From NCBI GenBank assembly GCA_963745035.1, contig CAVUVW010000017.1, positions 192,001 to 256,000 of the forward strand: a stretch of 64,000 nt of DNA, given 5' to 3'. Source of the DNA: an uncultured delta proteobacterium (GTDB lineage Bacteria > Desulfobacterota > Binatia > UBA9968). The notes under the pieces are model-generated. The model was not told the DNA's origin. It saw nothing but the letters and a program-made list of their open reading frames with translations, and searched no databases. Shown piece after piece: positions 1-44,013 of the stretch. How positions within the stretch are numbered: the first letter of the stretch is position 1; each line of letters begins with the position of its first letter. A program made the translations under genes and the position numbers.

Positions 1-73
1 CGCAAAACGCGCAGACAGCAAGTTTCAGTTTCTTGCTGTCGCCTACCGCCTGTTGCCTGTTGCCTGTGATCAT
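1..73 (-). CDS. 5' end of an ABC_sub_bind-family SBP copy, continuing beyond the window edge
   Basis: Reverse strand reads [24 protein letters not shown], nearly identical to the N-termini of the copies starting at 4733 and 6788. Confidence 0.8.
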
Positions 74-200
74 CGAATCACCCTATCCGCCTTTGCCAGC
101 ACGTTGGGCGGAATCGTTAGGCCGATCTGCTTTGCGGTTTTGAGGTTGATGGTCAACTCGAACTTCGTCGACTGCTCCACAGGTAAATCCACGGGCTTTT
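70..200 (-). pseudogene. Orphan C-terminal ~40 codons of an SBP copy
   Basis: Reads [42 protein letters not shown]; in-frame TGA a few codons upstream and no gene body. Confidence 0.8.
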
Positions 201-254
201 TGTCTTGGCGTTGTCAGCGGGAAATGCCGTTAACCCACACGCGCGGCAAATCGA

Positions 255-283
255 TTGACGAAAGCCGATGCGGCGTTTAATCT
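255..283 (+). promoter_or_regulatory. sigma70-like promoter of TA module 1, probably leaderless
   Basis: TTGACG-N17-TAATCT ending 6 nt before the ATG at 290; no Shine-Dalgarno. Confidence 0.5.
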
Positions 284-289
284 CCAACC

Positions 290-535
290 ATGAAGCCCAA
301 TCATGAGAAAGTCTTGAAAGAGGCGTTGCGTCTTCCCACCGAGGCGCGTGCAGCGCTTGCCGGTCATCTGCTTGAAAGCTTGGATGACACAGTTGATGAG
401 GATGTTGAATTGGCGTGGGGCAAGGAGATTGCGCGACGCATCGACGATCTAGATCGGGGTAAAGTAAAGACGGTTCTCTGGTCCGTGGCGCGGCGCCAGA
501 TCCTCGGACGATCCGGTGGCCGCTCCAAGCGTTAG
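290..535 (+). CDS. Addiction-module antitoxin (TIGR02574-like)
   Basis: 81 aa, ALRLPTEARAALAGHLLESLD...W..EIARRI pattern; overlaps the downstream toxin. Confidence 0.85.
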   Translation: MKPNHEKVLKEALRLPTEARAALAGHLLESLDDTVDEDVELAWGKEIARRIDDLDRGKVKTVLWSVARRQILGRSGGRSKR

Positions 536-824
536 ACTCCATCCTGACGCAATCGCTGAGGCAAAGGCGGCTTACGATTGGTATGCTGAACGCAATCCCT
601 CTGTCGCGAATGCTTTCATCTCTGAACTCGATCACGCCATCAGCCAAATCCAAAAGACTCCGGAGCGGTGGGCCATGCATTTGCGTGGCACGAGAAAGTT
701 TCTCCTCCGACGTTTCCCGTACGCGGTAGTTTACCGGATCACCCAATCCACCATTCAGGTTATCGCTGTGGCCCATGGGCGCCGCCGTCCCGGCTATTGG
801 AAGTCGCGGCTTCAAATCGGGTAA
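516..824 (+). CDS. RelE/ParE-family toxin
   Basis: 102 aa, LHPDAIAE..AAYDWY...RRFPYAVVY...VIAVAHGRRRPGYW. Confidence 0.9.
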   Translation: MAAPSVRLHPDAIAEAKAAYDWYAERNPSVANAFISELDHAISQIQKTPERWAMHLRGTRKFLLRRFPYAVVYRITQSTIQVIAVAHGRRRPGYWKSRLQIG

Positions 825-847
825 GTCCATACTGAGATGATCACTGT

Positions 848-1954
848 TCACTTGATGACTTGATTCGCCCGCTCCAACACGCGGTTCGGAATTGTCAGGC
901 CGATCTGTTTCGCTGCTTTAAGGTTGATGACGAATTCAAATTTCGTCGCTTGCTGCACCGGCAAATCAGCCGGTTTGGCACCTTTCAAGATCTTGTCCAC
1001 ATAATCAGCCGCGCGGCGATAGAGGTCATCGAAGTCTGTCCCGTAGGACATCAGGCCGCCCTCATCGACAAACTCCTTCCGCCAGTAAATCGCCGGCAAG
1101 CGGAATTTGACGGCAAGCTCGACGATCCGCTTTCTTTCGGCGAAAAAGAAGGGACCGGCGGTGGTCATAATCGCGCCCACCTGCTTCTGCTTCGCGGTAT
1201 TAAAGGCGCTCTCTAAACCCTTGGCGTCGCGTTGAGTTTCGATCTCCTCCAATTCGAGCTTCAGTGCTAGAGCCGCAGGCCTGAGCGCTTTCATTTGGAG
1301 GTCTACAGCTAAGCTGGTTGTCGACCCCCGCAGAAGACCAACTCGGGCGAGCTTGAGGAACGCGTCCTTGAGTACCTCTAGTCTTTTAGTATTTAACTCC
1401 GGCGCTAGACCCGAGAATCCCGTAACATTGCCTCCCGGCCGCGCCAGATTGACAGCCAGACCGGCACCCACGGGGTCCGAAGCGATCGCCACGATGGGGA
1501 TGGCAGTAGTGGCGCTCTTGGCCGATAACGCCACCGCCGGCGACGTACCCACGATGACATCAACCTTGAGACGGACTAGGTCGGCCGCAAGCTCAGGCAG
1601 GCGCTCTGACTTTTGCTCGGAAAACCGGTACTCGAAGACGATATTTTTTCCTTCGATCCAGCCAAGCTTGCGCAGCTCCTGTCGGAACGCGTCCACGAGG
1701 ACCGCGCTACCGGAAGCAGTGCTGTTATCGAGGAACCCGATGCGGAAAACTTTTCCGGTCTGCTGCGCGTCGACAGAACCGCAAAGCGCAAAGAGCATGG
1801 CGCATAAACTAGAGATCAGAAGTCGCAGGTCAGAGATCGGCTTCAAATCAAAGCGGCAGACGGCACAGAGAAAACGTCCGGCGCTCGGACGCTGATGGTT
1901 CATTCCGGATCTGGGCTTTCTGACCTCTGACATCTGACCGCTGATCTCTGTCAT
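848..1954 (-). CDS. ABC_sub_bind (COG2984) SBP, copy 1; true start may be later
   Basis: RIGFL...LARPGGNVTG...GGLMSYG...[14 protein letters not shown] motifs; signal peptide ending VDA-QQ. Confidence 0.9.
   Translation of the reverse strand: MTEISGQMSEVRKPRSGMNHQRPSAGRFLCAVCRFDLKPISDLRLLISSLCAMLFALCGSVDAQQTGKVFRIGFLDNSTASGSAVLVDAFRQELRKLGWIEGKNIVFEYRFSEQKSERLPELAADLVRLKVDVIVGTSPAVALSAKSATTAIPIVAIASDPVGAGLAVNLARPGGNVTGFSGLAPELNTKRLEVLKDAFLKLARVGLLRGSTTSLAVDLQMKALRPAALALKLELEEIETQRDAKGLESAFNTAKQKQVGAIMTTAGPFFFAERKRIVELAVKFRLPAIYWRKEFVDEGGLMSYGTDFDDLYRRAADYVDKILKGAKPADLPVQQATKFEFVINLKAAKQIGLTIPNRVLERANQVIK
1810..1950. repeat. Inverted arms of TCTGACC-type heptamer repeats in the 5' region of SBP copy 1
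   Basis: agagatcagaagtcgcaggtcagagatc (~1810-1838) and tctgacctctgacatctgaccgctgatctctg (~1919-1950). Confidence 0.65.
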
Positions 1955-1960
1955 TTGAGT

Positions 1961-1989
1961 TTGACTTGAATCACCAGCTGCATTATAAA
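1961..1989 (+). promoter_or_regulatory. sigma70-like promoter of TA module 2
   Basis: TTGACT-N17-TATAAA; AAGGAG Shine-Dalgarno at 2011-2016. Confidence 0.55.
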
Positions 1990-2020
1990 TAACCTCATAA
2001 GTCTTCTAACAAGGAGCATT

Positions 2021-2263
2021 ATGGGAGCAATAGCCGTTTCTAAAAAGGAAGAAGAGCAAATCGAAAGGTTGCGTAAAGACCTGGGGATCGCAAGCAAATC
2101 GGCACTGATCCGCACCGCGCTAAGAACTTTGGAAAAGAAAAGCCAGGAAGAAAAATTACGCCGCGATATCCAGGACTCCGTGAATCGCTGCGGCGCGGCC
2201 GATCGTGAGGAGAACAGAGAACTTTTCAACGCCGGTGTCGCGCGCGCGGATGGGAAGGAGTAA
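2021..2263 (+). CDS. Putative ribbon-helix-helix antitoxin
   Basis: 80 aa, AIAV...IERLRKDLGIASKSALIRTAL; abuts the MazF gene. Confidence 0.75.
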   Translation: MGAIAVSKKEEEQIERLRKDLGIASKSALIRTALRTLEKKSQEEKLRRDIQDSVNRCGAADREENRELFNAGVARADGKE

Positions 2264-2608
2264 ATGCCCGTCAAACGGGGGCACTTATACATCATCGATT
2301 TCAATCCTCGCATCAAAACCAAGCCCGGAAAGCTTCGGCCTGGCCTAGTGCTCCAATCCGATCTCGTCAATGAGGCCGAGTATCCGTCGACTATCGTCAT
2401 TCCAACCACGACCCGGCTTGTGGAAAATCCGGGAATTCTTCGAATTCGCCTCAAGAAGGGCCAAGGCGGAGTCTCTCGCGACAGCGATCTACTGTTAGGC
2501 CAAGTGATCGCTGTGGCCAACGAGTCTTTCCGCCACGAGATTGGCTCCTTGCCAAATCCTATGATGGAAGAAGTGGAAAACCGTATCCGCATCATTCTAA
2601 ACTTGTGA
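2264..2608 (+). CDS. mazF: MazF/PemK-family endoribonuclease toxin
   Basis: KRGHLYIIDFNP...PGKLRPGLVLQSD...TIVIPTTT. Confidence 0.9.
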   Translation: MPVKRGHLYIIDFNPRIKTKPGKLRPGLVLQSDLVNEAEYPSTIVIPTTTRLVENPGILRIRLKKGQGGVSRDSDLLLGQVIAVANESFRHEIGSLPNPMMEEVENRIRIILNL

Positions 2609-2679
2609 GAAATCTCGGCTTGGTTAGTTCTTTGGATTTTCGATTAAAGACCATCTTCCTTACGCCTCGCCCCTCACGC

Positions 2680-3664
2680 CTATCGAATCACCTTATTCGC
2701 TCGCTCAAGCACACGGTTCGGAATTGTCAGGCCGATTTGTTTCGCTGCTTTGAGGTTGATAACGAATTCAAACTTCGTCGCTTGCTGCACCGGCAAATCA
2801 GCCGGTTTGGCACCTTTCAAGATCTTGTCCACGTAAACAGCGGCGCGCCGAAAGAGGTCAGTGTTGTCCGTCCCATACGACATGAGACCTCCCTCATCGA
2901 CAAACCCCTTCTGGGTAAATAGCCGGCAACCGGTATTTGACGGCAAGCTCGACGATCCGCTTTCTTTCTGCGAAAAAGGGGCGGGTGGACATCGTCATAA
3001 TCGCGTTGACCTGCTTTTGCTTTGCCGTTTGAAAGGCGCTCTCTAAACCTTTGGCGTCGGGTTGAGCATCGATCTCCTCCAATTTCAGCTTCAGTGCCAC
3101 AGCGGCAGGCCTGATTTCTTTCAGTTGGAGGTCTCTTCCTACGCTGCCCGTTGTCCCCCGCAGAAACCCAACTCGGGCGAGCTTGGGGACCGAGTCTTTG
3201 AGTACCTCTAGCCTTTTGTGTTTAGCTCGGGCGATAAACTCGACAAGCCGGTGACGTTGCCACCCGGCCGCGCCAGGCTCGCAACCAAGCCTGCACCCAC
3301 AGGGTTCCCAGCGTTCGTCATCACGATGGGGATCGTAGTCGTGGCGCTCTTGGCCGCTAATGCTGCTGGGGTCGCTGCGACCACGATTAGATCAACCTTA
3401 AGACGAACCAGCTCCGCCGCAAGCTCAGGTAGCCGGTCATTTTTCCTCTGCAAATCGGGACTCGATGGTGAGATTCTTTCCCTCGCTCCAGCCAAGCTTG
3501 CTCAGCTCTTGCCGTAACCTCTCCAAGCGGTCCGCGATTCTGGAAGTAATGCTATCATCCAGGTAACCTATGCGGAAGATTTTTCCTGTCTGTTGCGCGT
3601 CGACAGAACCGCAAAGCGCATAGAGCACGGCGCAAAGCGCAATTGCAAAAATCTCTCGTTTCAA
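2680..3664 (-). CDS. SBP copy 2, three frameshifts (~3440, ~3212, ~2912)
   Basis: Fragments 3437-3664, 3208-3495, 2894-3100 and 2680-2946 join into one SBP very similar to copy 1. Confidence 0.85.
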
Positions 3665-3667
3665 TTT

Positions 3668-3705
3668 CTCACCTCACGCCTGACGCCTCACCACTCACGC
3701 CTCAC
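3668..3705. repeat. CTCACGC-type heptamer tract at an SBP junction (also ~2658-2682 and ~5736-5750)
   Basis: ctcacctcacgcctgacgcctcaccactcacgcctcacc. Confidence 0.7.
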
Positions 3706-4733
3706 CGAATCACCCGATCCGCCCGCGCCAACACTTTCTGGGGAATGGTGACGCCAATCTGCTTTGCCGTTTTCAAGTTGATTACCAGTTCAAATTTTGT
3801 CGGCTGCTCGACGGGAAGATCGGCGGGTTTGGCGCCCTTCAGGATTTTGTCCAAGTAAGTGGCTACGCGCCGGTGGCTGTCCTCGAGGTCCGACCCGTAG
3901 GACATGAGCCCACCGGCTTCTACAGCTTCTCTGAACGCATACGTTGATGGTAACCGGCTCTGTATTGCAAAGCCCGCGATCCGTTTTTGGTTGGCTCTCA
4001 TCAGAAGGCTCGAAGTCAAGTAGAGCCCATCCGGGCGCTCCTTGTTGACGGCAGAGAACACCTGGTCAAAACCTTCCGCATCTCGTATTTCCCAAGGCCG
4101 AATCGTCAACTTCAGCGCGCGCGCCGCGACTGGGAGAACCTCTTTCAGCTCGAATGTACTCCCCCGACTGGACGGATCGTAAAGAACCGCGACGCGGGCA
4201 ACTTTGGGAACGGCTTCTTTGAGCAGCTTCAGCCGCTTACCGGCTAGTTCTGGAGAAAGGTTTGTAATGCCGGTGACGTTGCCCCCGGGACGCGCAAGGT
4301 TTTCAATTAGCCCTGCCTCGACAGGATCGAGCCCTTGGCCCAACAGAACGATGGGTATTGTGCTGGTCGCATTCTTGGCCGCGCGGATCACTGCGGTCCC
4401 TCCTGCGGCCACAAGAATATCCATCTTGAGACGCACCAACTCGGCCGCTAGCTCCGGGAGCCGATCGACCTTTCCCTCCGCATAACGGTATTCGATGGCG
4501 ATGTTCCGTCCTTCTATATAGCCGAGCTCGCGCAGAGCCAGCCGAATGGCCTCGGCACGGGCAGACTCATTAGTGGGGTCGCCCGCCGATAAATAGCCTA
4601 ACCGCGAGGTTTTCTTCGCCTGCTGCGCGTTAGCGGACGGGCAAAGCGCAAAGAGCACGGCGCAAAACGCGCAGACAACGAGTTTCAGTTTCTTACTGTT
4701 GCCTACCGCCTGTTGCCTGTTGCCTGTGATCAT
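3702..4733 (-). CDS. SBP copy 3 (intact)
   Basis: 343 aa, family motifs and signal peptide. Confidence 0.92.
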   Translation of the reverse strand: MITGNRQQAVGNSKKLKLVVCAFCAVLFALCPSANAQQAKKTSRLGYLSAGDPTNESARAEAIRLALRELGYIEGRNIAIEYRYAEGKVDRLPELAAELVRLKMDILVAAGGTAVIRAAKNATSTIPIVLLGQGLDPVEAGLIENLARPGGNVTGITNLSPELAGKRLKLLKEAVPKVARVAVLYDPSSRGSTFELKEVLPVAARALKLTIRPWEIRDAEGFDQVFSAVNKERPDGLYLTSSLLMRANQKRIAGFAIQSRLPSTYAFREAVEAGGLMSYGSDLEDSHRRVATYLDKILKGAKPADLPVEQPTKFELVINLKTAKQIGVTIPQKVLARADRVIR

Positions 4734-4740
4734 CGAATCA
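4696..4740. repeat. TGCCTGT-type heptamer junction (also ~36-80 and ~6751-6795)
   Basis: ctgttgcctaccgcctgttgcctgttgcctgtgatcatcgaatca occurs three times near-identically, with ATGA stop/start overlap. Confidence 0.8.
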
Positions 4741-5725
4741 CTTTATCCGCGCTGGCCAGCACGTTTTGCGAGATCGTGAGGCCTAGCTGTTTCGCCGTCT
4801 TCAGATTGATCACCAGCTCGAACTTCGTCGGCTGCTCCACTGGAAGGTCTGCGGGCTTGGCGCCCTTTAGGATCTTGTCGACATAAGTGGCGGCGCGCCT
4901 GAAACTTTCCGTATCGCTGGATGAATAGGACATGAGGCCACCGGCCTCGACGTACTGTCTGTCCTCGTGTATTGAAGGCAGTCGGTTCTTTACGGCAAGG
5001 GCCGCAATCCGCTTTGGGTAACTTGCGGCCAGCGGACCGGTAACCGAAATGATCGCGCTCGCGCGCCCCTTGGTCGCGGCTTGGAATGCTGCCTCGTAAT
5101 CAGGATTCGGACCGCGCACCTCTAGGAATAAAAACTGCATCTTTAGTGCGCGCGCCGCAGCCTCATAATCTTTGAAAGCAATAGCCACCGCCGAGCTGCT
5201 CGCCTCTCCAAGGACTCCGACGCGCGATATCCCGGGAACCGCTTCTTTGAGCAGTTCTAGCCGCTTTCCGCTCAATTCTCGGATGAGGCCGGTGAGCCCG
5301 GTAATGTTCCCGCCGGGGCGCGCTAGGCTATCGATTAGCCCAGTGGCGACTGGATCCTGAGTTGTCACCATGACAATGGGAGTCGTCTTGGTCGCCTCCT
5401 TGGCTGCGCGGATCGCTGATAGAGATCTAACGACAAGCACATCGACCTTGAGTTGCACGAGTTCGGCCACTTGGTTTGTAATCCGGTCAGGCTTTCCTTC
5501 ACCGTAGCTATACTCGATCAGGATGTTTTTCCCCTCAATGTAACCGAGATCTCGCAGCCCTTGCCGGAATGCTTCGGCGAACGGATGGGGAGAGGTGGGG
5601 GTGGGGCTGACCCTTTGCGCCAGAAATCCTATGCGAGGTACTTTTCCTGTCTGCTGCGCCTCGACAAGAGAAGTAGTTGCCAGAAAGAGAGTTGCTAGCA
5701 GCCTGAGAGTGATTCTCTTGTTCAT
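4730..5725 (-). CDS. SBP copy 4 (intact)
   Basis: 331 aa, family motifs. Confidence 0.92.
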   Translation of the reverse strand: MNKRITLRLLATLFLATTSLVEAQQTGKVPRIGFLAQRVSPTPTSPHPFAEAFRQGLRDLGYIEGKNILIEYSYGEGKPDRITNQVAELVQLKVDVLVVRSLSAIRAAKEATKTTPIVMVTTQDPVATGLIDSLARPGGNITGLTGLIRELSGKRLELLKEAVPGISRVGVLGEASSSAVAIAFKDYEAAARALKMQFLFLEVRGPNPDYEAAFQAATKGRASAIISVTGPLAASYPKRIAALAVKNRLPSIHEDRQYVEAGGLMSYSSSDTESFRRAATYVDKILKGAKPADLPVEQPTKFELVINLKTAKQLGLTISQNVLASADKVIR

Positions 5726-5763
5726 ATTTTTCTCTTACTCACGCCTCAGCCTGCTGCCTGTTT

Positions 5764-6788
5764 TCACTTGATCACTCTATCCGCCCGCGCCAGCACACTC
5801 GGCGGAATCGTCAGACCGATTTGCCTGGCCGCCTTGATATTGATGACCAACTCGAATTTCGTCGGTTGCTCCACCGGAAGGTCTGCCGGCTTTGCGCCTT
5901 TAAGAATCTTGTCGACATAGGTCGCCGCGCGCCGGGACAAGTCAATAAAGCTTGTGGCATAACTGACCAGGCCGCCGGCTTCGACAAATTCATCCCGTCC
6001 GTACGTCGCCGGGAATTTGTTCTTCGCTGCGAACTCGACGATCCGATTTCTGTGTGCGTTCATCAGCGGACCGCCAGCGATCATCAATCCACCGGGGCGC
6101 CATTTCATGATCGCTTGGAATTGACTATCGAAGTCTTCGGCCTTTGCCAGTTCGAACCTTTGCGTTTGTACGTTTAGCACTCGGGCGGTTGGCTCTATCT
6201 CGTCCACGCCGATCCCTTCGGTGACGTTCGTCAAATCCCTTAAAACCGCCACACGCGAGAGCTTGGGAGTAATTTCTTTAAGCAGCTCCAATCGCTTGTC
6301 ACCGAGATCCCCGCTGACATTCGTAAGCCCCGTGATATTTCCAGCCGGCCGCGCGAGACTGCTGACAAATCCCGACGCCACCGGATCGTTGTCCGACATC
6401 ATGACGATGGGAATCGTAGTGGTCGCTTCTTTGGCAGGGCGGGTCGCTGAACTTCCCGTCGTGACAATCACATCGACGTGGAGATGGACCAGCTCGGCGG
6501 CAAGCTTGGTCATTCGCTGGGCGTCGTTGTCCGCGAAGCGGTAATCGATGGTAATGTTTTGTCCCTCGATGTATCCCAGCTTTCGTAGTGCCTCTCGAAA
6601 TGCTTCGACACGATCTTTTTGAACCGTTGCCCGGTTGAGAGAAAGGAACCCGACTCGGGAATCTTTTTCGCAGACTGCTGCGCCTCGGCGGACGAGCAAA
6701 ACGCAAGGATCACGGCGCAAAGAACGCAAGCAGCGAGCTTCAGATTCCTACTGTTGCCTACCGCCTGTTGCCTGTTGCCTGTGATCAT
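5764..6788 (-). CDS. SBP copy 5, one frameshift (~6660)
   Basis: N-terminus in 6510-6788 frame, remainder in 5764-6729 frame; one C missing in a C run. Confidence 0.88.
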
Positions 6789-7759
6789 CGAATCACCCGA
6801 TCCGCCCGCGCCAGCACACTCGGCGGGATGGTCAAGCCGATCTGCTTGGCAGCCTTGAGATTGATAACCAACTCGAACTTCGTCGGCTGCTCCACCGGCA
6901 AGTCGGCGGGTTTGGCACCCTTCAGAATTTTGTCGACGTAGACCGCAGCGCGCTGGAACAACGCTGGGAAGCTCGTGCCGTAAGACATAAGGCCGCCGGC
7001 TTCCACGTACTCCGTGAAGCTGTACATTGCCGGGAGTTTCTGCCTGGCCACCGCTTCTGTGATCAGCTTCCGGTTAAAGAAGATCAATGGATCCGGAAGC
7101 TCGAAGAGTGCCTGCGGTCGGTCCTTCCCAATGCCGGATAAAACCTTTTGAATCTCTTCCTGGTTTCGCGCCTCCAGGGAAATCAATGTAACTTTCAGCG
7201 CCTGCGCTTCGGTCAGACTTTCCTTGTACGCGGCCTGTTGACCCGGCTGGTTCGGGTTCCAGAGAACGGCCACGCGCGAGAGGCGTGGAACAACTTCCTT
7301 CAGTAACTCGAGCCGTTTCCCGGTCAAATCCGGAGCGATATGCGTCAGCCCAGTTATGTTTCCTCCGGGCTTCGCCAGGCTGGCGACGAATCCCGATCCT
7401 ACGGGGTCGGTGACTCCCGCCATGATGATCGGGATCGAGCTGGTTTGTTCCTTGGCGAACCGGATCGCAGGAGTAGCCGAAGAAACGATGACATCGACTT
7501 TGAGGCGAACAAAGTCGGCGACGAAGCCTGGCAAACTTTCCAACTTGCCGTCGGCCCAGCGGTACTCGATCACGATGTTGTGTCCGTCCACGTACCCAAG
7601 CTCGCGCAGCCCCTGTACAAACGCGGTAGCATGATGCCCCGCAGTGGCTTGGGAACCGGCTCCCACATAACCGATCTTTTTCGCTGGCTGCGCCAGGGCC
7701 ACCGCCCCACAGGGGGCCAGAGTCACAAAGATTGCAAACAGTCCAACGAAGCGTTTCAT
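6785..7759 (-). CDS. SBP copy 6 (intact)
   Basis: 324 aa, family motifs. Confidence 0.92.
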   Translation of the reverse strand: MKRFVGLFAIFVTLAPCGAVALAQPAKKIGYVGAGSQATAGHHATAFVQGLRELGYVDGHNIVIEYRWADGKLESLPGFVADFVRLKVDVIVSSATPAIRFAKEQTSSIPIIMAGVTDPVGSGFVASLAKPGGNITGLTHIAPDLTGKRLELLKEVVPRLSRVAVLWNPNQPGQQAAYKESLTEAQALKVTLISLEARNQEEIQKVLSGIGKDRPQALFELPDPLIFFNRKLITEAVARQKLPAMYSFTEYVEAGGLMSYGTSFPALFQRAAVYVDKILKGAKPADLPVEQPTKFELVINLKAAKQIGLTIPPSVLARADRVIR

Positions 7760-7766
7760 ACCCCGC

Positions 7767-8165
7767 CTATTTTAGATTTCCGATTTTAGATTGCCGATTG
7801 ATCGGAGGATTTCCGTTGCGGTTCTGAAGAGTTCTTATTGATGCTACCGTCATTGCGATGATCTCGTTGGTTTCTTGCAACAACTCCGACAGCCTGGCCT
7901 CAGGTACAAGCCCCGATTCAATCAGTAGTTCCATCCAGTAGGCTGACTCGTCTGCTTCTTCTTCAACTATCCGAAGCTTAGCGATCACATCCGCAGTGGA
8001 CTTGCCGCGACACGCTGCTCGATAGTTAGCGCCGATCGAAGTGCCGGATCGGATCAACTGTCTACCGATCACGTCCGCGGTTCGGTTCTTCGGTAGCGCG
8101 TCGACGACTTTGATGATGCGTAAAGCTAGCTGCTTTGTGCGCTTCTTGAATACGTTTTCATCCAT
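7767..8165 (-). CDS. Four helix bundle protein (23S rRNA IVP family, TIGR02436-like)
   Basis: RTKQLALRIIKVVDALP...IGRQLIRSGTSIGANYRAACRGKSTAD..AKLRIVEEEADESAYWMELL. Confidence 0.9.
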   Translation of the reverse strand: MDENVFKKRTKQLALRIIKVVDALPKNRTADVIGRQLIRSGTSIGANYRAACRGKSTADVIAKLRIVEEEADESAYWMELLIESGLVPEARLSELLQETNEIIAMTVASIRTLQNRNGNPPINRQSKIGNLK

Positions 8166-8210
8166 GTATTTTCTCGGCCAATCGAAAATCGGCAATCGAA
8201 AATCGAAAAT
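7769..8210. repeat. Inverted AATCGAA-type heptamer arms flanking the four-helix-bundle gene
   Basis: attttagatttccgattttagattgccgattg (~7769-7800) and caatcgaaaatcggcaatcgaaaatcgaaaat (~8179-8210). Confidence 0.8.
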
Positions 8211-8211
8211 G

Positions 8212-9257
8212 TCATTTAATGACTTTGTCCGCCCGCGCCAGCACACTCGGCGGAATCGTCAGACCGATTTGCTTGGCCGCCTTGATATTGATGATCAGAT
8301 CGAACTTCGTGGGCTGCTCGACAGGCAGATCGCCTGGCTTGGCGCCTTTCAAAATCTTGTCCACATACGTTGCGGCGCGCCGGTCCAAGATCGGTGATGC
8401 TTGCGCCGTAGCTCATTAACCCCCCGTTGTCGACAATTGTCGAATTGTAGTAAATCGCCGGCAGCCGGTTCTTTACCGCGAGGTCCGGAATCCCTCGGGA
8501 AAAGTTGCCGGGGAAGTTCAGCACGAGGACTGCATCCGCTCGCTCCTTGCTCGCGGTTCGTAATGCAGCCTCGATATCCTTTGAATCTCGTATGTCCAAA
8601 TATTGAATCTGCACGCCGAGCGCGCTCGCCGCGAGTTCCGTCTCTCTTAGCGATTGCGAATTGCCGGGGTTGTTAGACATACCGAGGACCGCCACGCGAG
8701 AGAGCTTGGGAACAATCTCCCTCAGAATCTCCAGTCGTTTTCCGCTTATCTCCTGGGCAAGGTTAGACAATCCCGTAATGTTTCCGCCGGGTCGCGCCAG
8801 GCTGGCGACGAACCCGTTCCCAACAGGATCGCTATCCTGCGTCATGACAATGGGAATCGTAGTGGTTGCTTGCTTGACGGCGCGGGTTGCTGTGGGACCA
8901 CCGGTGACGATGACGTCTACCTTGAGACGCACCAGCTCGGCTGCAAGCGCGGGGAGGCGATCGATTTTTCCCTCGGCAGATCGCCACTCAATGACAATGT
9001 TTTTCCCCTCGACATAACCAAGTTCACGCAGTCCCTGCCGGAATGCCTCCTGCGAACCGCTGCACTGCCGGAACGGGAGTCGGCAGTTAGATAACCTATG
9101 CGCGAAATTTTCTTCGGCTGCTGCGCCGCGGCCACCGCCCCACACATTGCGAATGCGACAGCGAGAGCAACAATCCCCACCAATTTTCGATTTTGGATTT
9201 TAGATTTTCGATTGTCGGAGCAGAGAAAGCAAAGCGCATTCGAGATGTCTTGTGCAT
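8212..9257 (-). CDS. SBP copy 7, several frameshifts (~9230, ~9065, ~8385)
   Basis: Fragments join into a full SBP; GGAG SD before ATG at 9257; ends ADKVIK*. Confidence 0.82.
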
Positions 9258-9296
9258 TTGTTTTTCTCCGTAATCGAAAATCGGCAATCTAAAATC
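9182..9296. repeat. Empty inverted AATCGAA heptamer arm pair
   Basis: aattttcgattttggattttagattttcgattg, ~57-bp spacer, aatcgaaaatcggcaatctaaaatc. Confidence 0.8.
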
Positions 9297-10342
9297 ACTT
9301 AATAACTTTGTCCGCCCGCGCCAGCACGTTCGGCGGAATCGTCAGGCCGATCTGCTTAGCGGCATTCATATTGACGAGGAACTCGAACTTCGTCGCCTGC
9401 TGTACCGGCAAGTCGGCCGGTTTGGCGCCTTTCAAGATCTTGTCGACAAAGTCAGCGGCGCGCCGCCATAAGTCCGTATTGTCTGGCCCGTAGCTCATCA
9501 AGCCGCCGGCCTCAACAAACTCACTGTAGTGGTAGATCGCCGGCAACCGGTTCTTTGCCGCGAAGTCCAACACTTGGCGTTGCTGAGTATTGATAAGTGC
9601 ACCTGTGGTCGTAATGAGCGCCTGGGCGCGTTCCTTTTTCGCTCGTGCGAATGCGCCCTCAAAATCGTCAAGGCTTCGCACCTCCAGCGATAGAAGTTTG
9701 AGTCCCAACGCCTTGGCCGCAGCCTCCATATCTGTGAGGGCCAGGTTTCCCCTCGTTCCACCCGGTTCCCAGAGGAAGGCCACCCGGGCAACCTTAGGGA
9801 AGGCTTCCTTGAGCAGCTCCAACCGTTTGCCATCTAGATCTGGCACCATGAGACTAAGACCGGTGATATTCCCGCCTGGTTGCGCCAGGCTGGAGACAAG
9901 CCCAGTTCCTACTGGATCGGAAGCAGCGGCGAATACGATGGGAATCGTCGCGCTCGCCTTCTTGGCAGCTAATGTAGCGCCGGGGCCGGCTGGTGACGAT
10001 GACGTCAACTTTGAGACGGACCAGTTCGGCTGCAAGGTCAGGCAGCCGTTCGCCTTTCCCTTCTGCATAACGGTACTCAATGACAATGTTTTTTCCTTCG
10101 ACATAGCCAAGCTCGCGCAGCCCTTGGCGAAATGCTTCGACCCGGGCCGAGAGGAAGGACGCGGAGGACGGGATCAGAATTCCTATCCGGTGAATTCTCG
10201 CCGGCTGCTGCGCCTGAACCACCGCCCCGCCAAACGTGACCGCGAGGACGATTGCAAAGAGCCCCGCCCATTTTCGATTTTCGATTTTGGATTCTTAGAT
10301 TGTTGGTCGAATAGACTTCGATCCAAAGATCACTTTCTGCAT
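9295..10342 (-). CDS. SBP copy 8, frameshifted (~10295, ~9990)
   Basis: Fragments 9854-10222 and 9295-10110; single AATCGAA tract at ~10270-10302. Confidence 0.82.
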
Positions 10343-10367
10343 TGCTCTTCTCGCCTCATCCAAAATT

Positions 10368-11429
10368 CTACCGAATGACCCGATCCGCCCGCGCCAGCAC
10401 GCTTCGGCGGTATCGTCGAGGCCGATCTGTTTCGCCGTCTTCTGATTGATCACCAGCTCAAACTTCGTCGGCTGCTCCACGGGGAGATCGGCAGGCTTGG
10501 CTCCCTTCAGGATTTTGTCCACGTAGGTGGCTGCGCGCCGGTAGCTGTCCGCGACGTCCGCCCCGTAGGACATGAGCCCACCGGCATCTACAGCTTCTCT
10601 GGTGTAGTACATCGACGGTAACCGACTCTTTAACGCAAAGCCCGCGATCCGTTTTTGATTAGCAGTCATTAGCGGGCCCGCGATGACGTAGAGTCCATCC
10701 GGGCGCTCCTTATTCAGCCCAGCGAATACCTTCTCGAAACCGTCCGCAGCTCGTGCTTCCGAAGGCTGAATAGTCAACCCCAGCGCACGCGCTGCGACTG
10801 GGAGATCCAATTTTACCTCGAGTACACTGGGCCGATTGGCCGACTCGTAGAGAACCGCGACACGGGCAACTTTGGGAACGGCTTCTTTGAGCACCTCCAG
10901 CCGCTTCCCGCCTAGTTCTCTGGAAAGGGTTGTAAGGCCGGTGACGTTGCCGCCGGGACGGGCAAGGCTTTCAACTAGGCCCGCCTCGACAGGATCGGCC
11001 GAAAGGCCCATCATAACTATGGGAATCGTCTTGGTCGCATTCTTGGCCGCCCGGATCATTCGTGATCCCTCCTGGTACCACGATGAGATCAACCTTGAGA
11101 CGCACGAGCTCGGCCGCAAGCTCAGGGAGCCGATCGACCTTCCCCTCCGTATATCGGTATTCGAAGGCGATGTTCTGTCCTTCTATGTAGCCAAGCTCGC
11201 GCAGAGCCAGCCGAAATGGCTCGGCACGGACGGACTCAGTAGCTGCATCGATCCCCGATAGATACCCTATCCGCTGGACTTTCTTCGCCTGCTGCGCCTG
11301 AGCCACAGCCCCACAAATTGCGAATGCGACAGCGAGAGCAAAGATCCCCACCAATTTTCGATTTTCGATTTTCGATTTTCGATTGCCGGAACAAGAATCG
11401 GAAACTCGCTTCGTCGAAAATACTTTCAT
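10368..11429 (-). CDS. SBP copy 9, frameshifted (~11065, ~10410)
   Basis: MKVFSTKRV...AQAQQAKKVQRIGYL; corrected frame ends ARADRVIR* at 10368. Confidence 0.82.
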
Positions 11430-11474
11430 GCGTCTTCTCACGTAATCGAAAATCGGCAATCGAAAATCAAAAAT
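11353..11474. repeat. Empty inverted AATCGAA heptamer arm pair
   Basis: aattttcgattttcgattttcgattttcgattg, ~58-bp spacer, aatcgaaaatcggcaatcgaaaatcaaaaat. Confidence 0.8.
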
Positions 11475-11475
11475 G

Positions 11476-12459: not shown

Positions 12460-12720
12460 GCGTTTCCTTGCTCTCTGCCCGTGGAGTCGCCTTGTTAGGA
12501 GCACGAACAGTGCCACGATCGACTCATCGATATCTCCCAGGAGAGCCGTGAATTTGCTGAAGAGTTTCTGATGCTGGGGATCGCACAGACGAATCCAGCG
12601 ATGTGAGCGAGCCGAATTGATACGGGGAGTAGCTATCTTGATTCATCGCCTTTCGGCCGGCGCGATGGCCAGAACGAGCAGCGAGGGAAGGCGACTTAAG
12701 TCCAACTCGGGATCTCATCC

Positions 12721-15796: not shown

Positions 15797-15874
15797 AACC
15801 AAGTTGCCGGACTCGATAATAGAAAAAACTTGTAGCACATCGCGGCAAAGCCGCAACCAAACTACATATCTATT

Positions 15875-25735: not shown

Positions 25736-26902
25736 ATGAAACTTTCTCCGATCGCCTATTTCGGCATGGCCGCTGTCTGCCAAACCGCCGGCTCGTCTGG
25801 AGCCGCCATGCTGGCACCGTTTTTCATGAAGGAACATGGCTATTCGATCGCTCTCGTCGGCATTCCCCTGGTCGCCAATGGCGTCGGCCGCGTTTGCTCC
25901 GATCTGCTGTCGGGCGTGATGGCGAGTTACGTCAGCTCGGGAATGTTGCTCATCGCCGCGGTCGTGATCGGATTTCTTATGAGCGCCGTTGGCTATCTTT
26001 TTCTTGACAGCATGCCGGTGTTTCTGGCCGTATTTACGATCTTCGGCCTCACCGAAGCGATGTTCGCGCTGTCTTTGCGAAAGATCGGCTTTGACTATTC
26101 GACACCCGAAAGCCAAGGAAAGGTGCAAGGCCAGATGGCTTCCGCGTTAGGCGTCGGCTTTACTCTCGGCCCGTTGCTCGGCGGATTCATCGGCAAATGG
26201 CTGGGGCCTAACGCACTGTTCTTGCTCTACGGCATGCCCGAGTTAATTGCGCTCATCCTGATCTTGTTCGGGGGCGGCCACCGGTATCGCCGCACCGTCA
26301 TGGATCCGTCAACAACCTTATGGCGCGAAGGCGTGAACCTGCTGCGCAAACCGGCTTTTCTCGCTTCTTGTCTTGCGGTCTGTCAATCGTTCTTTTTTCT
26401 CGTCGGCGTGACCCGCGTGGCGTTTCCATTCCTCGCCGTCAACCAACGCGGCATCGGCCTCGAGATCGTCGGCACGATGGTCGCGATCTCGCGTCTGACC
26501 GATACTTTCGGACGTTTTAGCGGCGGCCTGCTCGCCGACCGCATTCAAGCATCGCGCGTGATTCTGCTCGGCGTGGGCCTCGGCATCCCGATGTTCTTGG
26601 CGCAGATTTACGGCAGCGGATTTTTGACGCTACTGCTGCCGCTGGCGATCATGACCATGGGATTTGGCTTCAGCAACGTCGGCTCGACGACTTTGGCCCT
26701 GCAAGCCGCGCCGCCCGCTGCGAAAGGCCTGAGCCTTGGCCTGTCGCGCGCTTCCACCTCGGTGGGCCAGATGCTGGGACCGCTGCTGTGCGGCGTGTTG
26801 ATCGAAAAAATGGGCTACGAGCAGGGATTTCAAGCGATGGCGTTGATTTCGGCGGTAGTTCTAGTAGTAACTTGGATCGGCCTGAAACGAAAACCGGAAT
26901 GA
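25736..26902 (+). CDS. MFS transporter
   Basis: 12 TM pattern; GPLLGG, LADRI. Confidence 0.85.
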   Translation: MKLSPIAYFGMAAVCQTAGSSGAAMLAPFFMKEHGYSIALVGIPLVANGVGRVCSDLLSGVMASYVSSGMLLIAAVVIGFLMSAVGYLFLDSMPVFLAVFTIFGLTEAMFALSLRKIGFDYSTPESQGKVQGQMASALGVGFTLGPLLGGFIGKWLGPNALFLLYGMPELIALILILFGGGHRYRRTVMDPSTTLWREGVNLLRKPAFLASCLAVCQSFFFLVGVTRVAFPFLAVNQRGIGLEIVGTMVAISRLTDTFGRFSGGLLADRIQASRVILLGVGLGIPMFLAQIYGSGFLTLLLPLAIMTMGFGFSNVGSTTLALQAAPPAAKGLSLGLSRASTSVGQMLGPLLCGVLIEKMGYEQGFQAMALISAVVLVVTWIGLKRKPE

Positions 26903-26906
26903 AACC

Positions 26907-27779: not shown

Positions 27780-27895
27780 GAAACACCTCCATGATTTCAC
27801 GATGTGTCCCCTAAGATTTATCACCGTGTTGCTTCGACGGTCAAGGCGAGAAGTCTCTGTTGCCCCTGGGCTTTCGTTGGCGCTATAGTCGTCCC

Positions 27896-43996: not shown

Positions 43997-44013
43997 TTAT
44001 GAAGGAGAGATAC

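What the first reader, a model, noticed from the sequence alone, without database searches (positions are those of the whole stretch)
36..11474. SBP junctions are marked by 7-bp tandem-repeat tracts of four unrelated sequences
Seen: TGCCTGT-type (~36-70, ~4696-4730, ~6751-6785), CTCACGC-type (~2658-2682, ~3668-3705, ~5736-5750), TCTGACC-type (~1810-1950) and AATCGAA-type (~7769, 8179, 9182, 9272, 10270, 11353, 11444). Most begin at or within a few bases of the preceding stop codon. The period is conserved while the sequence is not. Inference: the periodic structure itself is a signal (recombination or insertion site, protein-binding array, or RNA-processing mark), or a scar of the insertion process.
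Basis: partly seen in the sequence, partly recalled or inferred. Interest (0 to 1): 0.75.

Follow-up and report, generated by a model that had tools for sequence, protein, structure and literature searches.

The report
Tandem-repeat hairpin elements between genes
The 7-base repeat tracts between these binding-protein genes are real, but they are local members of a genome-wide population of short-repeat hairpin elements, the same design that encloses the small 'intervening-sequence protein' genes known from ribosomal RNA, and most likely act on the RNA rather than marking a special gene-cassette junction.

Summary
Observation confirmed. The window's first 11.5 kb holds 13 period-7/14 arrays. 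At TRF score >=40 two shuffled genomes of 7.4 Mb give 0 and 2 period-7 arrays. Of 11 binding-protein (SBP) stop codons, 8 clearly and 2 weakly are followed by a tract within 0-3 nt.

The tracts are not SBP-specific, and period 7 is not the only period. At the same threshold the genome holds 173, 122 and 155 arrays of period 7, 8 and 9. They fill spacers from the stop codon on, and 283 of the 309 that follow a stop follow a non-SBP gene. About 42% of arrays have a reverse-complement partner within 250 nt, against 1% for a reversed control, and the pairs fold into long stems.

The same inverted tandem-repeat arms enclose PF05635 '23S rRNA intervening-sequence protein' genes: 11 of 14 copies checked in this genome, including window 7765-8210, and 27 of 30 loci from 30 other genomes. 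The Coxiella rRNA intervening sequence shows heptamer repeats in an RNase III-cut stem (PMC4990558).

Best reading: IVS-like / REP-like RNA hairpin elements, some reduced to single arms. RNase III cutting is inferred, not shown. This scan has noted the gene-in-hairpin cassette before on other DNA.

The parts
36..69 (-). Single (unpaired) AGGCAAC-type heptamer array, directly after SBP stop 70-72
   Evidence: TRF 48-67; stop located; nearly identical copies at 4696-4729 and 6751-6784
1811..1840 (-). 3' arm of a TCTGACC/GGTCAGA-type hairpin
   Evidence: Read; pairs with 1919-1950 in the fold of 1805-1954(-): -57.6 kcal/mol, z -3.9, 0 of 200 shuffles as stable
1919..1950 (-). 5' arm of the TCTGACC-type hairpin; lies inside ORF 848..1954
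   Evidence: TRF; fold; ORF list
2658..2682 (-). Weak CGTGAGG-type tract (about 3 degenerate units) overlapping SBP stop 2680-2682
   Evidence: Seen by eye, below TRF score 30; stop
3610..3642 (-).
   Evidence: TRF; 9 of 13 such arrays in the genome lie at SBP 5' ends and encode ALCA(M/V)LFALC
3672..3705 (-). Single CGTGAGG-type array overlapping SBP stop 3702-3704; followed by GGTGAG + TTG, a likely ribosome-binding site and start of the next SBP
   Evidence: TRF; sequence; fold not significant, z -1.3
4641..4670 (-). TTTGCGC-type periodicity in the signal-peptide core of SBP 3702..4733
   Evidence: TRF
4696..4729 (-). Single AGGCAAC-type array between the ATGA start/stop overlap (4730-4733) and the signal peptide; read in frame in ORF 3702..4733
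   Evidence: TRF; ORF list; fold z -0.8
5736..5760 (-). Weak composite tract (AGGCAGC x2 then TGAGGCGTGAG) after SBP stop 5764-5766
   Evidence: Seen by eye; the same order of families recurs in contig C13
6751..6784 (-). Single AGGCAAC-type array after SBP stop 6785-6787
   Evidence: TRF. Contigs of three runs carry one more G after 6656; by my reading this would put the downstream SBP in frame with this start
7765..7799 (-). 3' arm of the IVP cassette (AATCGGC/AATCTAA units)
   Evidence: TRF period 14; inverted-repeat score 38 against 18 for the reversed control
7767..8165 (-). Four-helix-bundle gene (PF05635 / TIGR02436), 132 aa from the ATG at 8165; its last codons run into the 3' arm
   Evidence: Pfam 2.5e-18; TIGR02436 4.7e-26; PDB chain 2rld_A 1.6e-18
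8174..8210 (-). 5' arm of the IVP cassette; starts 1 nt after SBP stop 8212-8214
   Evidence: TRF
9183..9217 (-). 3' arm of an ORF-less hairpin
   Evidence: TRF; fold of 9176-9300(-): -34.4 kcal/mol, z -4.0, 0 of 200 shuffles
9272..9294 (-). 5' arm of the ORF-less hairpin, abutting SBP stop 9295-9297
   Evidence: Sequence; fold; stop
10270..10306 (-). AATCGAA-type array whose partner (about 10340-10367, after stop 10368-10370) is degenerate
   Evidence: TRF; fold z -0.2, not significant
11354..11384 (-). 3' arm of an ORF-less hairpin; its last unit encodes the N-R-K of the next SBP's signal peptide
   Evidence: TRF 100% matches; fold of 11345-11480(-): -43 kcal/mol, z -2.7, 0 of 200 shuffles
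11444..11474 (-). 5' arm of that hairpin; starts 1 nt after SBP stop 11476-11478; close to identical to the IVP cassette's 5' arm by my comparison of the two strings
   Evidence: TRF; sequences printed

Best explanation
The tracts are the arms, paired or single, of a genome-wide population of short tandem-repeat hairpin elements. Each arm is 3-5 copies of a 6-9-nt unit. The two arms are reverse complements and lie 0-60 nt apart. Some elements instead enclose a ~130-aa four-helix-bundle gene (PF05635, '23S rRNA intervening-sequence protein'). The elements fill the spacer between genes from the stop codon onward.

This is the design of the ORF-bearing intervening sequences of 23S rRNA, here sitting in mRNA spacers. 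In the SBP array one junction holds a full cassette (7765-8210). Three hold ORF-less hairpins. One holds a degenerate hairpin. The rest hold single, purine-rich, sense-oriented arms.

Inferred mechanism: in the polycistronic transcript the paired arms form 20-35-bp stems. These serve as double-strand-specific processing sites (RNase III) and/or 3' stability barriers that separate neighbouring cistrons, as REP hairpins do behind E. coli binding-protein genes (recalled). Arms built of tandem units can pair in several registers. They can evolve by slippage plus correction of one arm against the other, which would explain why period and pairing persist while the unit sequence drifts or is replaced.

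Within the SBP array the tract was copied along with the stop-proximal end and the signal peptide. Some tracts are read through as the N-terminal extension of the next SBP.

Shown: the anatomy, the genome-wide distribution, the link to PF05635, and conservation of the architecture. Inferred: RNA cleavage or stabilisation, and the way the arms evolve.
For: Real and genome-wide:
- At TRF score >=40, periods 7/8/9 give 173/122/155 arrays. A Markov copy gives 2/3/11 and a triplet shuffle 0/2/13.
- The same units recur at tens of loci, for example AACAGGC 52 times.

Position:
- Of 771 merged arrays, 479 are intergenic where my crude gene caller puts 26% of the DNA. Only 7 of 217 period-7 arrays lie deep in genes.
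- 53 of 621 arrays lie between divergent genes, against 758 of 4729 spacers overall.
- 30% of 348 arrays start within 9 nt of the upstream stop, against 9% when placed at random within their own spacer.

Pairing:
- 42% of 621 arrays have a reverse-complement partner within 250 nt, against 1% for reversed and 6% for direct controls.
- There are 135 inverted against 56 direct TRF pairs within 1.5 kb. 99 of the 135 loops are under 60 nt, with a second mode of 8 at 300-600 nt.
- Seven paired sites in the window fold with z -2.7 to -8.6, and 0 of 200 shuffles fold as well.

Link to PF05635:
- 11 of 14 copies checked in this genome lie between inverted arrays, each with a different unit.
- So do 27 of 30 loci from 30 other genomes of the phylum. 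Arm period is 7 in 21 of them, 8 in 4 and 9 in 1.
- Two more homologues, in L014 and L047, sit between ATTTTGG/AATCCAA arms like the window's.

Precedent: the Coxiella 23S rRNA intervening sequence has a 28-bp terminal stem cut by RNase III, a loop ORF of this family, and 2-3 tandem GACAGAT heptamers beginning at the 5' cleavage site (PMC4990558, passages read).

Conservation of architecture: in the spacer between window genes 43963..45192 and 45312..47108, 16 of 19 genus members have an inverted repeat reached by 0 of 200 shuffles. Units are GTTCAANNN or GTTCCAANN with matching TTGAAC or TGGAAC arms, and GAGGATR, TTTCGAG or CGTGAT in three genomes.

Same properties reported elsewhere: Xanthomonas GGGAATC heptamers (PMC4692102) and Geobacter metallireducens paired octamer, nonamer and heptamer sites (PMC2700814).
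Against: - No RNA data show cleavage or ends at these stems. The only runs available are assembled contigs.
- The tracts at 5 of the SBP junctions are single arms that do not fold better than shuffles (z -0.8, -1.3, -0.2). For them a hairpin role cannot hold, and 'remnant arm' is an assumption.
- The largest octamer group (ACTCC-type, about 135 arrays) and the AGGATCG and GTGAGGC families have no PF05635-bearing copy among the 14 checked.
- Homology between the loops of the small hairpins and the cassette interior is weak. One loop scores 25, reached by 33 of 500 shuffles; the other is reached by 326 of 500.
- The 'close to the stop' statistic partly reflects that the elements fill their spacers.
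- SBP stops carry only period-7/14 arrays (26 of 26), whereas 102 of 283 arrays at other stops do. The general model does not explain this bias except by co-duplication.
Confidence: 0.6

Rival explanations
1. The tracts are recombination or insertion sites specific to an SBP cassette array. On this view SBP genes are shuffled, duplicated or captured at the tracts, in the manner of integron attC sites.
For: - SBP stops are enriched for tracts: 26 of 139 against 283 of 6047; for period 7/14, 26 of 139 against 102 of 6047.
- The block of stop + tract + signal peptide is 83-97% identical between paralogues whose bodies are 40-65% identical.
- The same heptamer families follow SBP stops in other Binatia-like genomes: 18 of 65 and 25 of 82, against 0 of 14 in Rokubacteria-labelled loci.
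- Toxin-antitoxin modules sit in the array.
- The genome has an integron integrase (445 bits).
Against: - 283 of the 309 arrays that follow a stop follow non-SBP genes, and hairpins sit at conserved spacers between other genes in all genus members fetched.
- The single arms cannot fold like attC.
- The only integron integrase is on another contig, C6.
- The SBPs are paralogues, so the enrichment can come from co-duplication.
- No breakpoint coinciding with a tract was found. The joints seen in contigs were between conserved paralogous parts at 90% likeness.
Confidence: 0.12
2. The arrays are by-products of replication slippage, with 7-9-nt units especially prone to it. They accumulate where they do no harm and have no function of their own.
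For: - Heptamers are over-represented among simple repeats in many bacteria, and polymerase slippage has been proposed as the cause (as cited in PMC4692102).
- Arrays avoid gene interiors and divergent promoter regions, as neutral insertions under purifying selection would.
- Several SBP copies show frame breaks in the ORF listing.
Against: - Slippage does not by itself create a matching reverse-complement array 0-60 nt away, as seen for 42% of arrays against 1% of the reversed control.
- It does not explain the same few units recurring at tens of loci.
- It does not explain a hairpin kept at one spacer across 16 of 19 species while its unit changes in both arms together.
Confidence: 0.13
3. 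The arrays are double-stranded DNA binding sites for a nucleoid or global regulator protein, as proposed for the paired sites of Geobacter metallireducens (IHF/HU).
For: The G. metallireducens genome paper describes pairs of sites on opposite strands, made of four octamers, three nonamers or five heptamers. It assigns them to unidentified global regulators (PMC2700814, passages read).
Against: - Periods of 7-9 bp put successive units on different faces of the DNA helix (established knowledge).
- Arrays are depleted where promoters lie: 53 of 621 between divergent genes against 758 of 4729 overall.
- Single arms are oriented relative to transcription. AACAGGC is sense in 21 and antisense in 5 co-directional contexts. 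Single period-7 arrays are purine-rich on the sense strand in 56% and pyrimidine-rich in 28%.
- Arms change together so as to keep pairing.
Confidence: 0.07
4. The heptamer tracts are phase-variation switches. A gain or loss of one 7-nt unit between the coupled start codon and the signal peptide shifts the frame and turns an SBP paralogue on or off.
For: - In the window (ORF 3702..4733) and in three other genomes (L009, L041, L055), an ATG overlapping the upstream TGA reads in frame through the four-unit AGGCAAY array into the SBP. The same holds in L023 and C2:6212 by my own reading.
- One paralogue (C17:182657) has a longer array, and the frame from the overlapping GTG is closed (my reading).
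- Seven is not a multiple of three.
Against: - The arrays are short and imperfect: 2.9-5 copies with 69-100% matches.
- Unit number is four in all these genomes, and also at non-coding sites.
- Among the indel rows shown for contigs of three DNA runs, none was a 7-nt change in a tract. 26 further rows were not shown, and contigs drop rare variants.
- Other junctions with the same array have their own ribosome-binding site and start after it (C14:402138 and L041 at 34).
Confidence: 0.06

Closest known systems
ORF-bearing intervening sequences (IVS) of 23S rRNA (Coxiella burnetii, PMC4990558 passages read; Leptospira, recalled: Ralph and McClelland 1993)
   Same: - A PF05635-family four-helix-bundle ORF sits in the loop of a long terminal inverted-repeat stem.
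- The stem region contains tandem heptamers whose number varies between strains.
- The window cassette 7765-8210 has exactly this layout.
   Different: - Here the elements sit in mRNA spacers between protein genes, not in rRNA helices.
- Most copies have no ORF, or only one arm.
- RNase III cutting is shown for the rRNA elements and only inferred here.
Intergenic heptamer repeat families: Xanthomonas GGGAATC and Nostoc GGGGAYT (PMC4692102); cyanobacterial STRR heptamers (recalled: Mazel et al. 1990); Beggiatoaceae TAACTGA (PMC4679880)
   Same: - Tandem 7-nt units, 2-14 copies, at hundreds of sites, 89-93% of them intergenic.
- Much nearer the upstream gene's end (28 nt) than the next gene.
- Some overlap the stop codon.
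- 7-8% lie between divergent genes.
- 70-75 inverted pairs per Xanthomonas genome.
   Different: - Those papers treat one unit per genome and propose G-quadruplexes or translational control. The units here have no G-runs, and many families with periods 7, 8 and 9 coexist.
- In the passages I read, none links the arrays to PF05635 genes.
Geobacter metallireducens 'global regulator binding sites' classes 1-3 (PMC2700814)
   Same: - Pairs of sites on opposite strands at variable distance, each made of four octamers, three nonamers or five heptamers, 16-48 copies per class.
- Found between genes of operons such as proB-proA.
   Different: They were interpreted as DNA sites for IHF/HU-like proteins. 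No hairpin or PF05635 link is made in the passages read.
REP/BIME elements and REPINs of enterobacteria and pseudomonads (recalled: Newbury et al. 1987; Bertels and Rainey 2011)
   Same: - Dispersed imperfect palindromes just after stop codons, inside operons.
- They are well known behind binding-protein genes (malE, hisJ), where the RNA hairpin stabilises the upstream cistron.
- Each family is linked to a single-copy protein gene flanked by the repeats.
   Different: - REP stems are not built from tandem units.
- The associated protein is a RAYT transposase, not a four-helix bundle.
- Whether PF05635 proteins mobilise or bind the arrays is unknown.

Membership tests
IVS-type hairpin cassette (PF05635 gene between inverted arms) | PF05635/TIGR02436 ORF in the loop | tested here: met
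   Met for 7765-8210 only. The other tracts have loops of 55-80 nt without this ORF, or no partner arm.
IVS-type hairpin cassette (PF05635 gene between inverted arms) | Terminal inverted repeats able to form a stem of about 20 bp or more | tested here: met
   Met for 4 of the junction elements. Not met for the single arrays at 36-69, 3672-3705, 4696-4729, 6751-6784 and 10270-10306 (for three of them).
IVS-type hairpin cassette (PF05635 gene between inverted arms) | Excision or cleavage of the stem by RNase III | not testable with these tools
   Only assembled contigs were available. One contig from an RNA library bridges 11335-11532, which shows neither cutting nor its absence.
IVS-type hairpin cassette (PF05635 gene between inverted arms) | Location inside an rRNA gene | tested here: not met
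   All tracts lie between or at the ends of protein genes. No Rfam family matches them.
Intergenic heptamer repeat families (STRR / GGGAATC type) | Tandem 7-nt units recurring at many intergenic sites of one genome | tested here: met
   590 period-7 TRF rows, 173 of them at score >=40, against 0-2 in shuffles. The unit AACAGGC occurs 52 times. 151 of 217 period-7 arrays are intergenic.
Intergenic heptamer repeat families (STRR / GGGAATC type) | Nearer the upstream gene's stop than the next start; rare between divergent genes; some in inverted pairs | tested here: met
   These match the figures given for Xanthomonas in PMC4692102.
REP/REPIN-RAYT system | A RAYT (IS200/IS605-like Y1 transposase) gene flanked by the repeats | not tested
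I did not search for RAYT genes.
Integron cassette array (attC junctions) | An integron integrase next to the array | tested here: not met
   The only TIGR02249 match above cut-off is at C6:42134-43036. The window is on C17.
Integron cassette array (attC junctions) | Each junction is an imperfect palindrome with R''/R' core sites (RYYYAAC ... GTTRRRY, recalled) | tested here: not met
   Five junction tracts are single arms without significant folding. By eye, no tract unit fits the core. I ran no formal attC model.
Phase-variable simple sequence repeat (contingency locus) | Unit-number polymorphism between cells or strains that changes the reading frame or promoter spacing | tested here: inconclusive
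   No 7-nt indel appears among the rows shown for three DNA runs. 26 rows were not shown, and contigs hide rare variants. Unit number is four in four other genomes.
Intrinsic transcription terminator | Short G+C-rich stem followed by a run of U | tested here: not met
   7 terminator-like sites in 1-12600 against 15 expected from shuffles. None coincides with the listed tracts, although one small stem lies at 4660-4672 inside the TTTGCGC signal-peptide array 4641-4670. By eye, no U-run follows the 3' arms in the sequences.

The most novel reading that the evidence does not exclude
The unexplained 7-9-nt tandem repeat arrays of many bacterial genomes (cyanobacterial STRR, Xanthomonas GGGAATC, the Geobacter 'regulator sites', and these Binatia tracts) are one class. 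On this reading they are the ORF-less progeny or solo arms of intervening-sequence-type hairpin elements, whose full form carries a PF05635 four-helix-bundle gene. The protein, a relative of the DGR accessory protein Avd, would bind the periodic arms and help spread or maintain them. Hosts would use the stems as RNase III-dependent separators of cistrons. They would even recruit the arms as coding sequence for signal peptides, with SBP genes translated from an ATGA overlap through the array.
Probability: 0.3. Interest if true: 0.8.

Novelty: new variant of a known kind. Interest (0 to 1): 0.6.

Why it matters
Heptamer arrays in bacterial spacers have been on record since 1990 (recalled), and their over-representation was noted in 2007 (cited in PMC4692102). 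No accepted function has been assigned. The PF05635 family is large (88 of 151 genomes sampled in this phylum) and also has no known role outside diversity-generating retroelements.

Showing that the arrays and the protein family belong to one architecture, the one that RNase III excises from rRNA, turns two open questions into one testable one. It gives a concrete assay: cleavage and stability of an SBP-hairpin-SBP transcript with and without RNase III and the protein.

For genome annotation, it explains a class of 'junk' repeats that break assemblies and mislead start-codon calls in Binatia and related soil bacteria.

Tried and rejected
- **Sequencing runs.** All 20 runs are kept as contigs, so RNA ends, strand and level cannot be read. 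Paralogues cross-map heavily at 90% likeness. The joints listed connect conserved parts of different SBP copies, so I do not read them as rearrangements. One X5 contig matches 7482-7800 and then runs on unlike the window, and a joint 9341>7769 has 14 other letters between. This could be a strain without the IVP gene at this junction, but it is too weak to claim.
- **Synteny of the SBP-IVP-SBP segment in the genus.** Hundreds of paralogous hits and no collinear match, so gain or loss of this cassette could not be scored.
- **One cognate PF05635 'master' per repeat family.** Eight families have one, but the ACTCC octamers and the AGGATCG and GTGAGGC families have none among the 14 copies checked. 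Arms are alike only when the proteins are at least 60% identical (8 of 13 pairs) and in about 1% of the other pairs. Overall Spearman correlation is 0.16, reached by 38 of 2000 permutations. This shows shared descent, not specificity.
- **Small hairpins as internally deleted cassettes.** The position-consistent match after the 5' arm (GAGAA..ATG..) is not significant: reached by 33 of 500 and 326 of 500 shuffles.
- **An 'AGAAGA' motif before the arrays, as in Coxiella.** Present in only 8 of 64 AGGCAAY arrays.
- **Automated frame test.** It missed the window's own junctions because the N-terminal motif varies, so several in-frame calls are manual.
- **Other checks.** Integron, intrinsic terminator and Rfam family were rejected. 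G-quadruplex was rejected by eye, because the units lack G-runs.
- **Gene calling.** My gene caller is crude: 6126 genes, 74% coverage, and it missed two SBP genes in the window. Genic and intergenic counts are approximate.
- **Papers.** Searches found no paper linking PF05635 genes to flanking tandem arrays outside rRNA. Subscription journals and the supplements of PMC2700814 were not seen.

Full report
**1. What is there**

The first 12.5 kb of the window is a head-to-tail array of ABC-transporter substrate-binding protein genes (PF04392) on the minus strand. Two toxin-antitoxin modules on the plus strand and one PF05635 '23S rRNA intervening-sequence protein' (IVP) gene interrupt it.

TRF finds 13 arrays of period 7 or 14 between 36 and 11474. 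Two of them are weak.

The genes run leftward, so each tract lies just downstream of the stop of one SBP and upstream of, or inside, the 5' end of the next. One search places 11 SBP stop codons. Eight are followed within 0-3 nt by a tract, one of them weak. Two are followed by degenerate tracts. One abuts a toxin-antitoxin module instead.

**2. Chance**

At TRF score >=40 the 7.43-Mb genome (28 contigs) holds 173, 122 and 155 arrays of period 7, 8 and 9. A third-order Markov copy holds 2, 3 and 11. A copy with triplets shuffled in 300-bp blocks holds 0, 2 and 13. The arrays are far beyond chance. Period 7 is not special genome-wide: the window itself has period-8 and period-9 arrays at other gene ends.

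A few units recur at tens of loci:
- period 7: AACAGGC 52, AGGATCG 33, AAAATCG/AAAATCC/AAATCCG 22/22/21, ACGCCTC 18;
- period 8: four ACTCC-type units, 28-42 each;
- period 9: GTTCAA-type units, 21-40 each.

A pattern of three AGGCAAC units with up to two mismatches occurs in 13 of 18 same-genus genomes and in 0 of 12 genomes of two other families of the order. The reversed control gives 0-2 matches. One of the 13 is the unpublished genome G005.

**3. Where the arrays lie**

I used my own crude gene caller (6126 genes, 74% of the DNA; it missed two SBP genes of the window). By that caller:
- 479 of 771 merged arrays are intergenic, and only 7 of 217 period-7 arrays lie deep inside a gene.
- Arrays are under-represented between divergent genes (53 of 621, against 758 of 4729 spacers) and not between convergent ones (95 of 621 against 727 of 4729).
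- In co-directional spacers, 30% of 348 arrays start within 9 nt of the upstream stop, against 9% when placed at random in the same spacer. Part of this reflects that the elements fill their spacers.
- An array follows 26 of 139 SBP-type ORF ends and 283 of 6047 other gene ends. For period 7/14 the figures are 26 of 139 and 102 of 6047.

So the tracts occur at arbitrary gene ends, but SBP ends are enriched and carry heptamers only. The SBPs are paralogues and not independent.

**4. Hairpins**

Of 621 arrays, 42% have a reverse-complement match within 250 nt (score >=24). The figure is 1% for the reversed sequence and 6% for a direct match. Families differ:
- ACTCC-type octamers are mostly paired;
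- AACAGGC is paired in 4 of 32 cases;
- ACGCCTC is paired in 1 of 13 cases.

Among 1308 arrays there are 135 inverted and 56 direct neighbour pairs within 1.5 kb. Of the inverted loops, 99 of 135 are under 60 nt, and 8 lie at 300-600 nt.

Folded as RNA in the sense of the genes, seven paired sites in the window give z -2.7 to -8.6, and 0 of 200 shuffles fold as well. These include 11345-11480, 9176-9300 and 1805-1954 in the SBP array. The single arrays at 4640-4735, 3600-3708 and 10262-10376 do not fold significantly (z -0.8, -1.3, -0.2).

The 'four unrelated sequences' therefore sort as follows:
- TCTGACC type: one hairpin.
- AATCGAA type: one IVP cassette, two ORF-less hairpins and one degenerate hairpin.
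- TGCCTGT (AGGCAAC) type: single arms.
- CTCACGC (CGTGAGG) type: single arms.

**5. The link to PF05635**

The IVP gene at 7767-8165 sits between inverted arrays at 7765-7799 and 8174-8210. The genome has 18 PF05635 matches. Of 14 checked, 11 lie between inverted tandem arrays, each with another unit: AGGCAAT, CGTGAT, GTTCAANNN, TAGTGAGT, AATGGAT, AAGGATA, AATCGAA, GACGAGG and TTCGGAT. The three failures are truncated matches.

PF05635 is found in 88 of 151 genomes sampled across the phylum. For the 30 best loci, from 30 genomes, 27 have flanking inverted repeats scoring 26-71, against 14-24 for the reversed control in those 27 loci. L084 (23) and L103 (22) are weak, and L100 fails. Arm period is 7 in 21 loci, 8 in 4, 9 in 1 and unclear in 4. 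Two SBP-linked loci of other Binatia-like genomes (L014, L047) carry close homologues of the window's IVP between ATTTTGG/AATCCAA arms.

I reached this reading. A later look-up showed that this scan holds 21 earlier notes of the same gene-in-hairpin cassette in other genomes.

**6. What is in print**

I read passages, not whole papers.

- *Coxiella burnetii* (PMC4990558). The 23S rRNA IVS is a 428-nt element with a 28-bp terminal stem cut by RNase III. It has a loop ORF of this protein family and two or three tandem GACAGAT heptamers, whose number differs between strains and which begin at the 5' cleavage site.
- *Xanthomonas* (PMC4692102). GGGAATC heptamers are 89-93% intergenic and lie on average 28 nt from the upstream ORF. 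Some overlap stops, 7-8% lie between divergent genes, and there are 70-75 inverted pairs. These are the same properties as here. They are interpreted there as possible G-quadruplexes.
- *Geobacter metallireducens* (PMC2700814). The genome paper lists paired sites on opposite strands made of four octamers, three nonamers or five heptamers, and calls them binding sites of unknown global regulators.
- *Beggiatoaceae* (PMC4679880). TAACTGA repeats are discussed as translational signals.

In the passages read, none of the three papers on arrays outside rRNA connects them with PF05635 genes. Five searches found no paper that does so outside rRNA.

**7. Conservation of design, not sequence**

The spacer between window genes 43963..45192 and 45312..47108 could be extracted from 19 genomes of the genus: G000 itself, 17 published relatives, and the unpublished G005 as L130. 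One further locus lacked the upstream flank.

In 16 of the 19, an inverted repeat is present that 0 of 200 shuffles reach. L115, L125 and L129 are weaker. Most carry GTTCAANNN or GTTCCAANN nonamers, with the extra C mirrored in the other arm (TTGAAC or TGGAAC). Three carry quite different units: GAGGATR, TTTCGAG and CGTGAT. Two have a G+C-rich palindrome nested in the loop.

Position and architecture are kept while the unit is changed or replaced. This is hard to reconcile with pure mutational noise. It fits selection for a stem, or repeated re-occupation of a tolerant site.

**8. The SBP junction itself**

Between paralogues whose bodies are 40-65% identical, a block of about 150 nt is 83-97% identical. 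The block comprises the last ~35 nt of the upstream gene, the AGGCAAC tract and the signal peptide. The three TGCCTGT-type tracts are thus copies of one module, not independent events.

The same module, a stop followed by four AGGCAAY units and then a signal peptide, is found in other genomes (L009, L023, L041, L055). Heptamer arrays follow SBP-type stops as follows:
- 18 of 65 in Binatia-labelled loci;
- 25 of 82 in 'delta/Proteobacteria'-labelled loci;
- 0 of 14 in Rokubacteria-labelled loci;
- 7 of 47 in loci with other labels.

In ORF 3702..4733, and in L009, L041 and L055, an ATG that overlaps the upstream TGA reads in frame through the array into the SBP. The same holds in L023 and C2:6212 by my own reading. 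Other junctions have their own ribosome-binding site and start after the array.

The signal-peptide core of this SBP subgroup is itself heptamer-periodic. 9 of 13 TTTGCGC arrays lie at SBP 5' ends and encode ALCA(M/V)LFALC.

Contigs of three runs from three studies carry one more G after 6656. By my reading of the sequences, this extra base would restore the frame of SBP 5764-6787. If so, at least one 'frameshift' in this array is an assembly or strain difference.

**9. Mechanism**

Shown: the anatomy, distribution, pairing, PF05635 link and conservation described above.

Inferred:
- In the transcript, the paired arms form 20-35-bp stems. These are cut by RNase III and/or block 3' exonucleases, separating the fates of neighbouring cistrons. 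This rests on analogy with rRNA IVS (PMC4990558) and with REP hairpins behind malE and hisJ (recalled).
- Tandem-unit arms tolerate slippage, because they can pair in more than one register.
- Single purine-rich arms are remnants or leaders. In co-directional spacers AACAGGC lies on the sense strand in 21 cases and antisense in 5. Single period-7 arrays are purine-rich on the sense strand in 56% of cases and pyrimidine-rich in 28%.

What the PF05635 protein does is open. It resembles the crystallised chain 2rld_A (1.6e-18).

**10. Rivals**

- *Integron-like cassette junctions.* The only integron integrase is on contig C6, single arms cannot fold like attC, and most arrays are at non-SBP genes. 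Junction homogenisation keeps a recombination role possible.
- *DNA-binding arrays.* Disfavoured by strand orientation, scarcity at divergent promoters and co-varying arms.
- *Slippage by-product.* Does not explain matched inverted arms or positional conservation.
- *Phase variation.* Conceivable where the array lies between start and signal peptide. But unit number is constant at four, and no 7-nt indel was among the rows shown.
- *Terminators and known RNA families.* Excluded.

**11. Verdict**

The tracts are real and highly non-random. They are explained as local members of a class that is partly on record, as unexplained heptamer repeats and as rRNA IVS, but not recognised as one thing. 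The SBP-specific reading is not supported.

Claims that rest partly on the unpublished genome G005: one of the 13 positive genomes, one of the 19 spacers, and some rows. None of the conclusions depends on it.

Noticed in passing
window 290-532 / 516-821 (+) and 2021-2263 / 2264-2605 (+): Two toxin-antitoxin modules (Unstab_antitox + ParE; RHH + PemK/MazF) are inserted on the opposite strand inside the SBP array. By my reading, the first leaves only a 40-aa C-terminal SBP remnant at 70-192 (for the modules).
   Followed up: partly
window 3610-3642 and 4641-4670; contig C17 178492-196670; contig C2 12634 and 19289: The hydrophobic core of the signal peptide of one SBP subgroup (ALCA(M/V)LFALC) is encoded by a TTTGCGC heptamer array. 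9 of 13 such arrays in the genome lie at SBP 5' ends.
   Followed up: partly
G000 C13:1,705,000-1,800,000: This is the densest repeat region of the genome: 66 arrays in 100 kb, against a mean of 7.4 per 50 kb. It holds 10 of the 18 PF05635 matches, several of them fragments. It also shows recurring composite spacers in the fixed order AGGCAAC array, GTGAGGC array, GTTCAANNN arrays.
   Followed up: partly
G000 C6:42134-43036 (-), with C6:36114-36638: An integron integrase (TIGR02249, 445 bits; cut-off 265) lies about 6 kb from a PF05635 cassette with GTTCAA-nonamer arms. A GTTCAAGA/GAACTTT hairpin sits just beyond the integrase's 5' end. I did not examine whether cassettes there use such hairpins.
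   Followed up: no
L124 and L129 (spacer orthologous to window 45193-45311): A G+C-rich palindrome (CCCCC..CGCG..GGGGG type) is nested in the loop of the nonamer hairpin in two genus members. This is a second kind of palindromic element landing inside the first.
   Followed up: no
window 6656: Contigs of three runs from three studies carry one more G here than the window. By my reading, the extra base would put SBP 5764-6787 in frame from its ATGA start. If so, some apparent frameshifts in this array may be assembly or strain indels. Other one-base differences are listed at 9979, 9988, 10151, 10156 and 10402.
   Followed up: partly
window 15874-16208: A 175-bp unit is repeated 1.9 times at 88% identity. 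It contains its own short arrays (CGCAGAGTT, CTCCGCGTA).
   Followed up: no
window 26900-26985: A hairpin of GTTCAAA/TTGAACC units fills a convergent spacer, between the stop of 25736..26902 and the stop of 26988..27824. It therefore directly follows the stop codon on both strands.
   Followed up: partly
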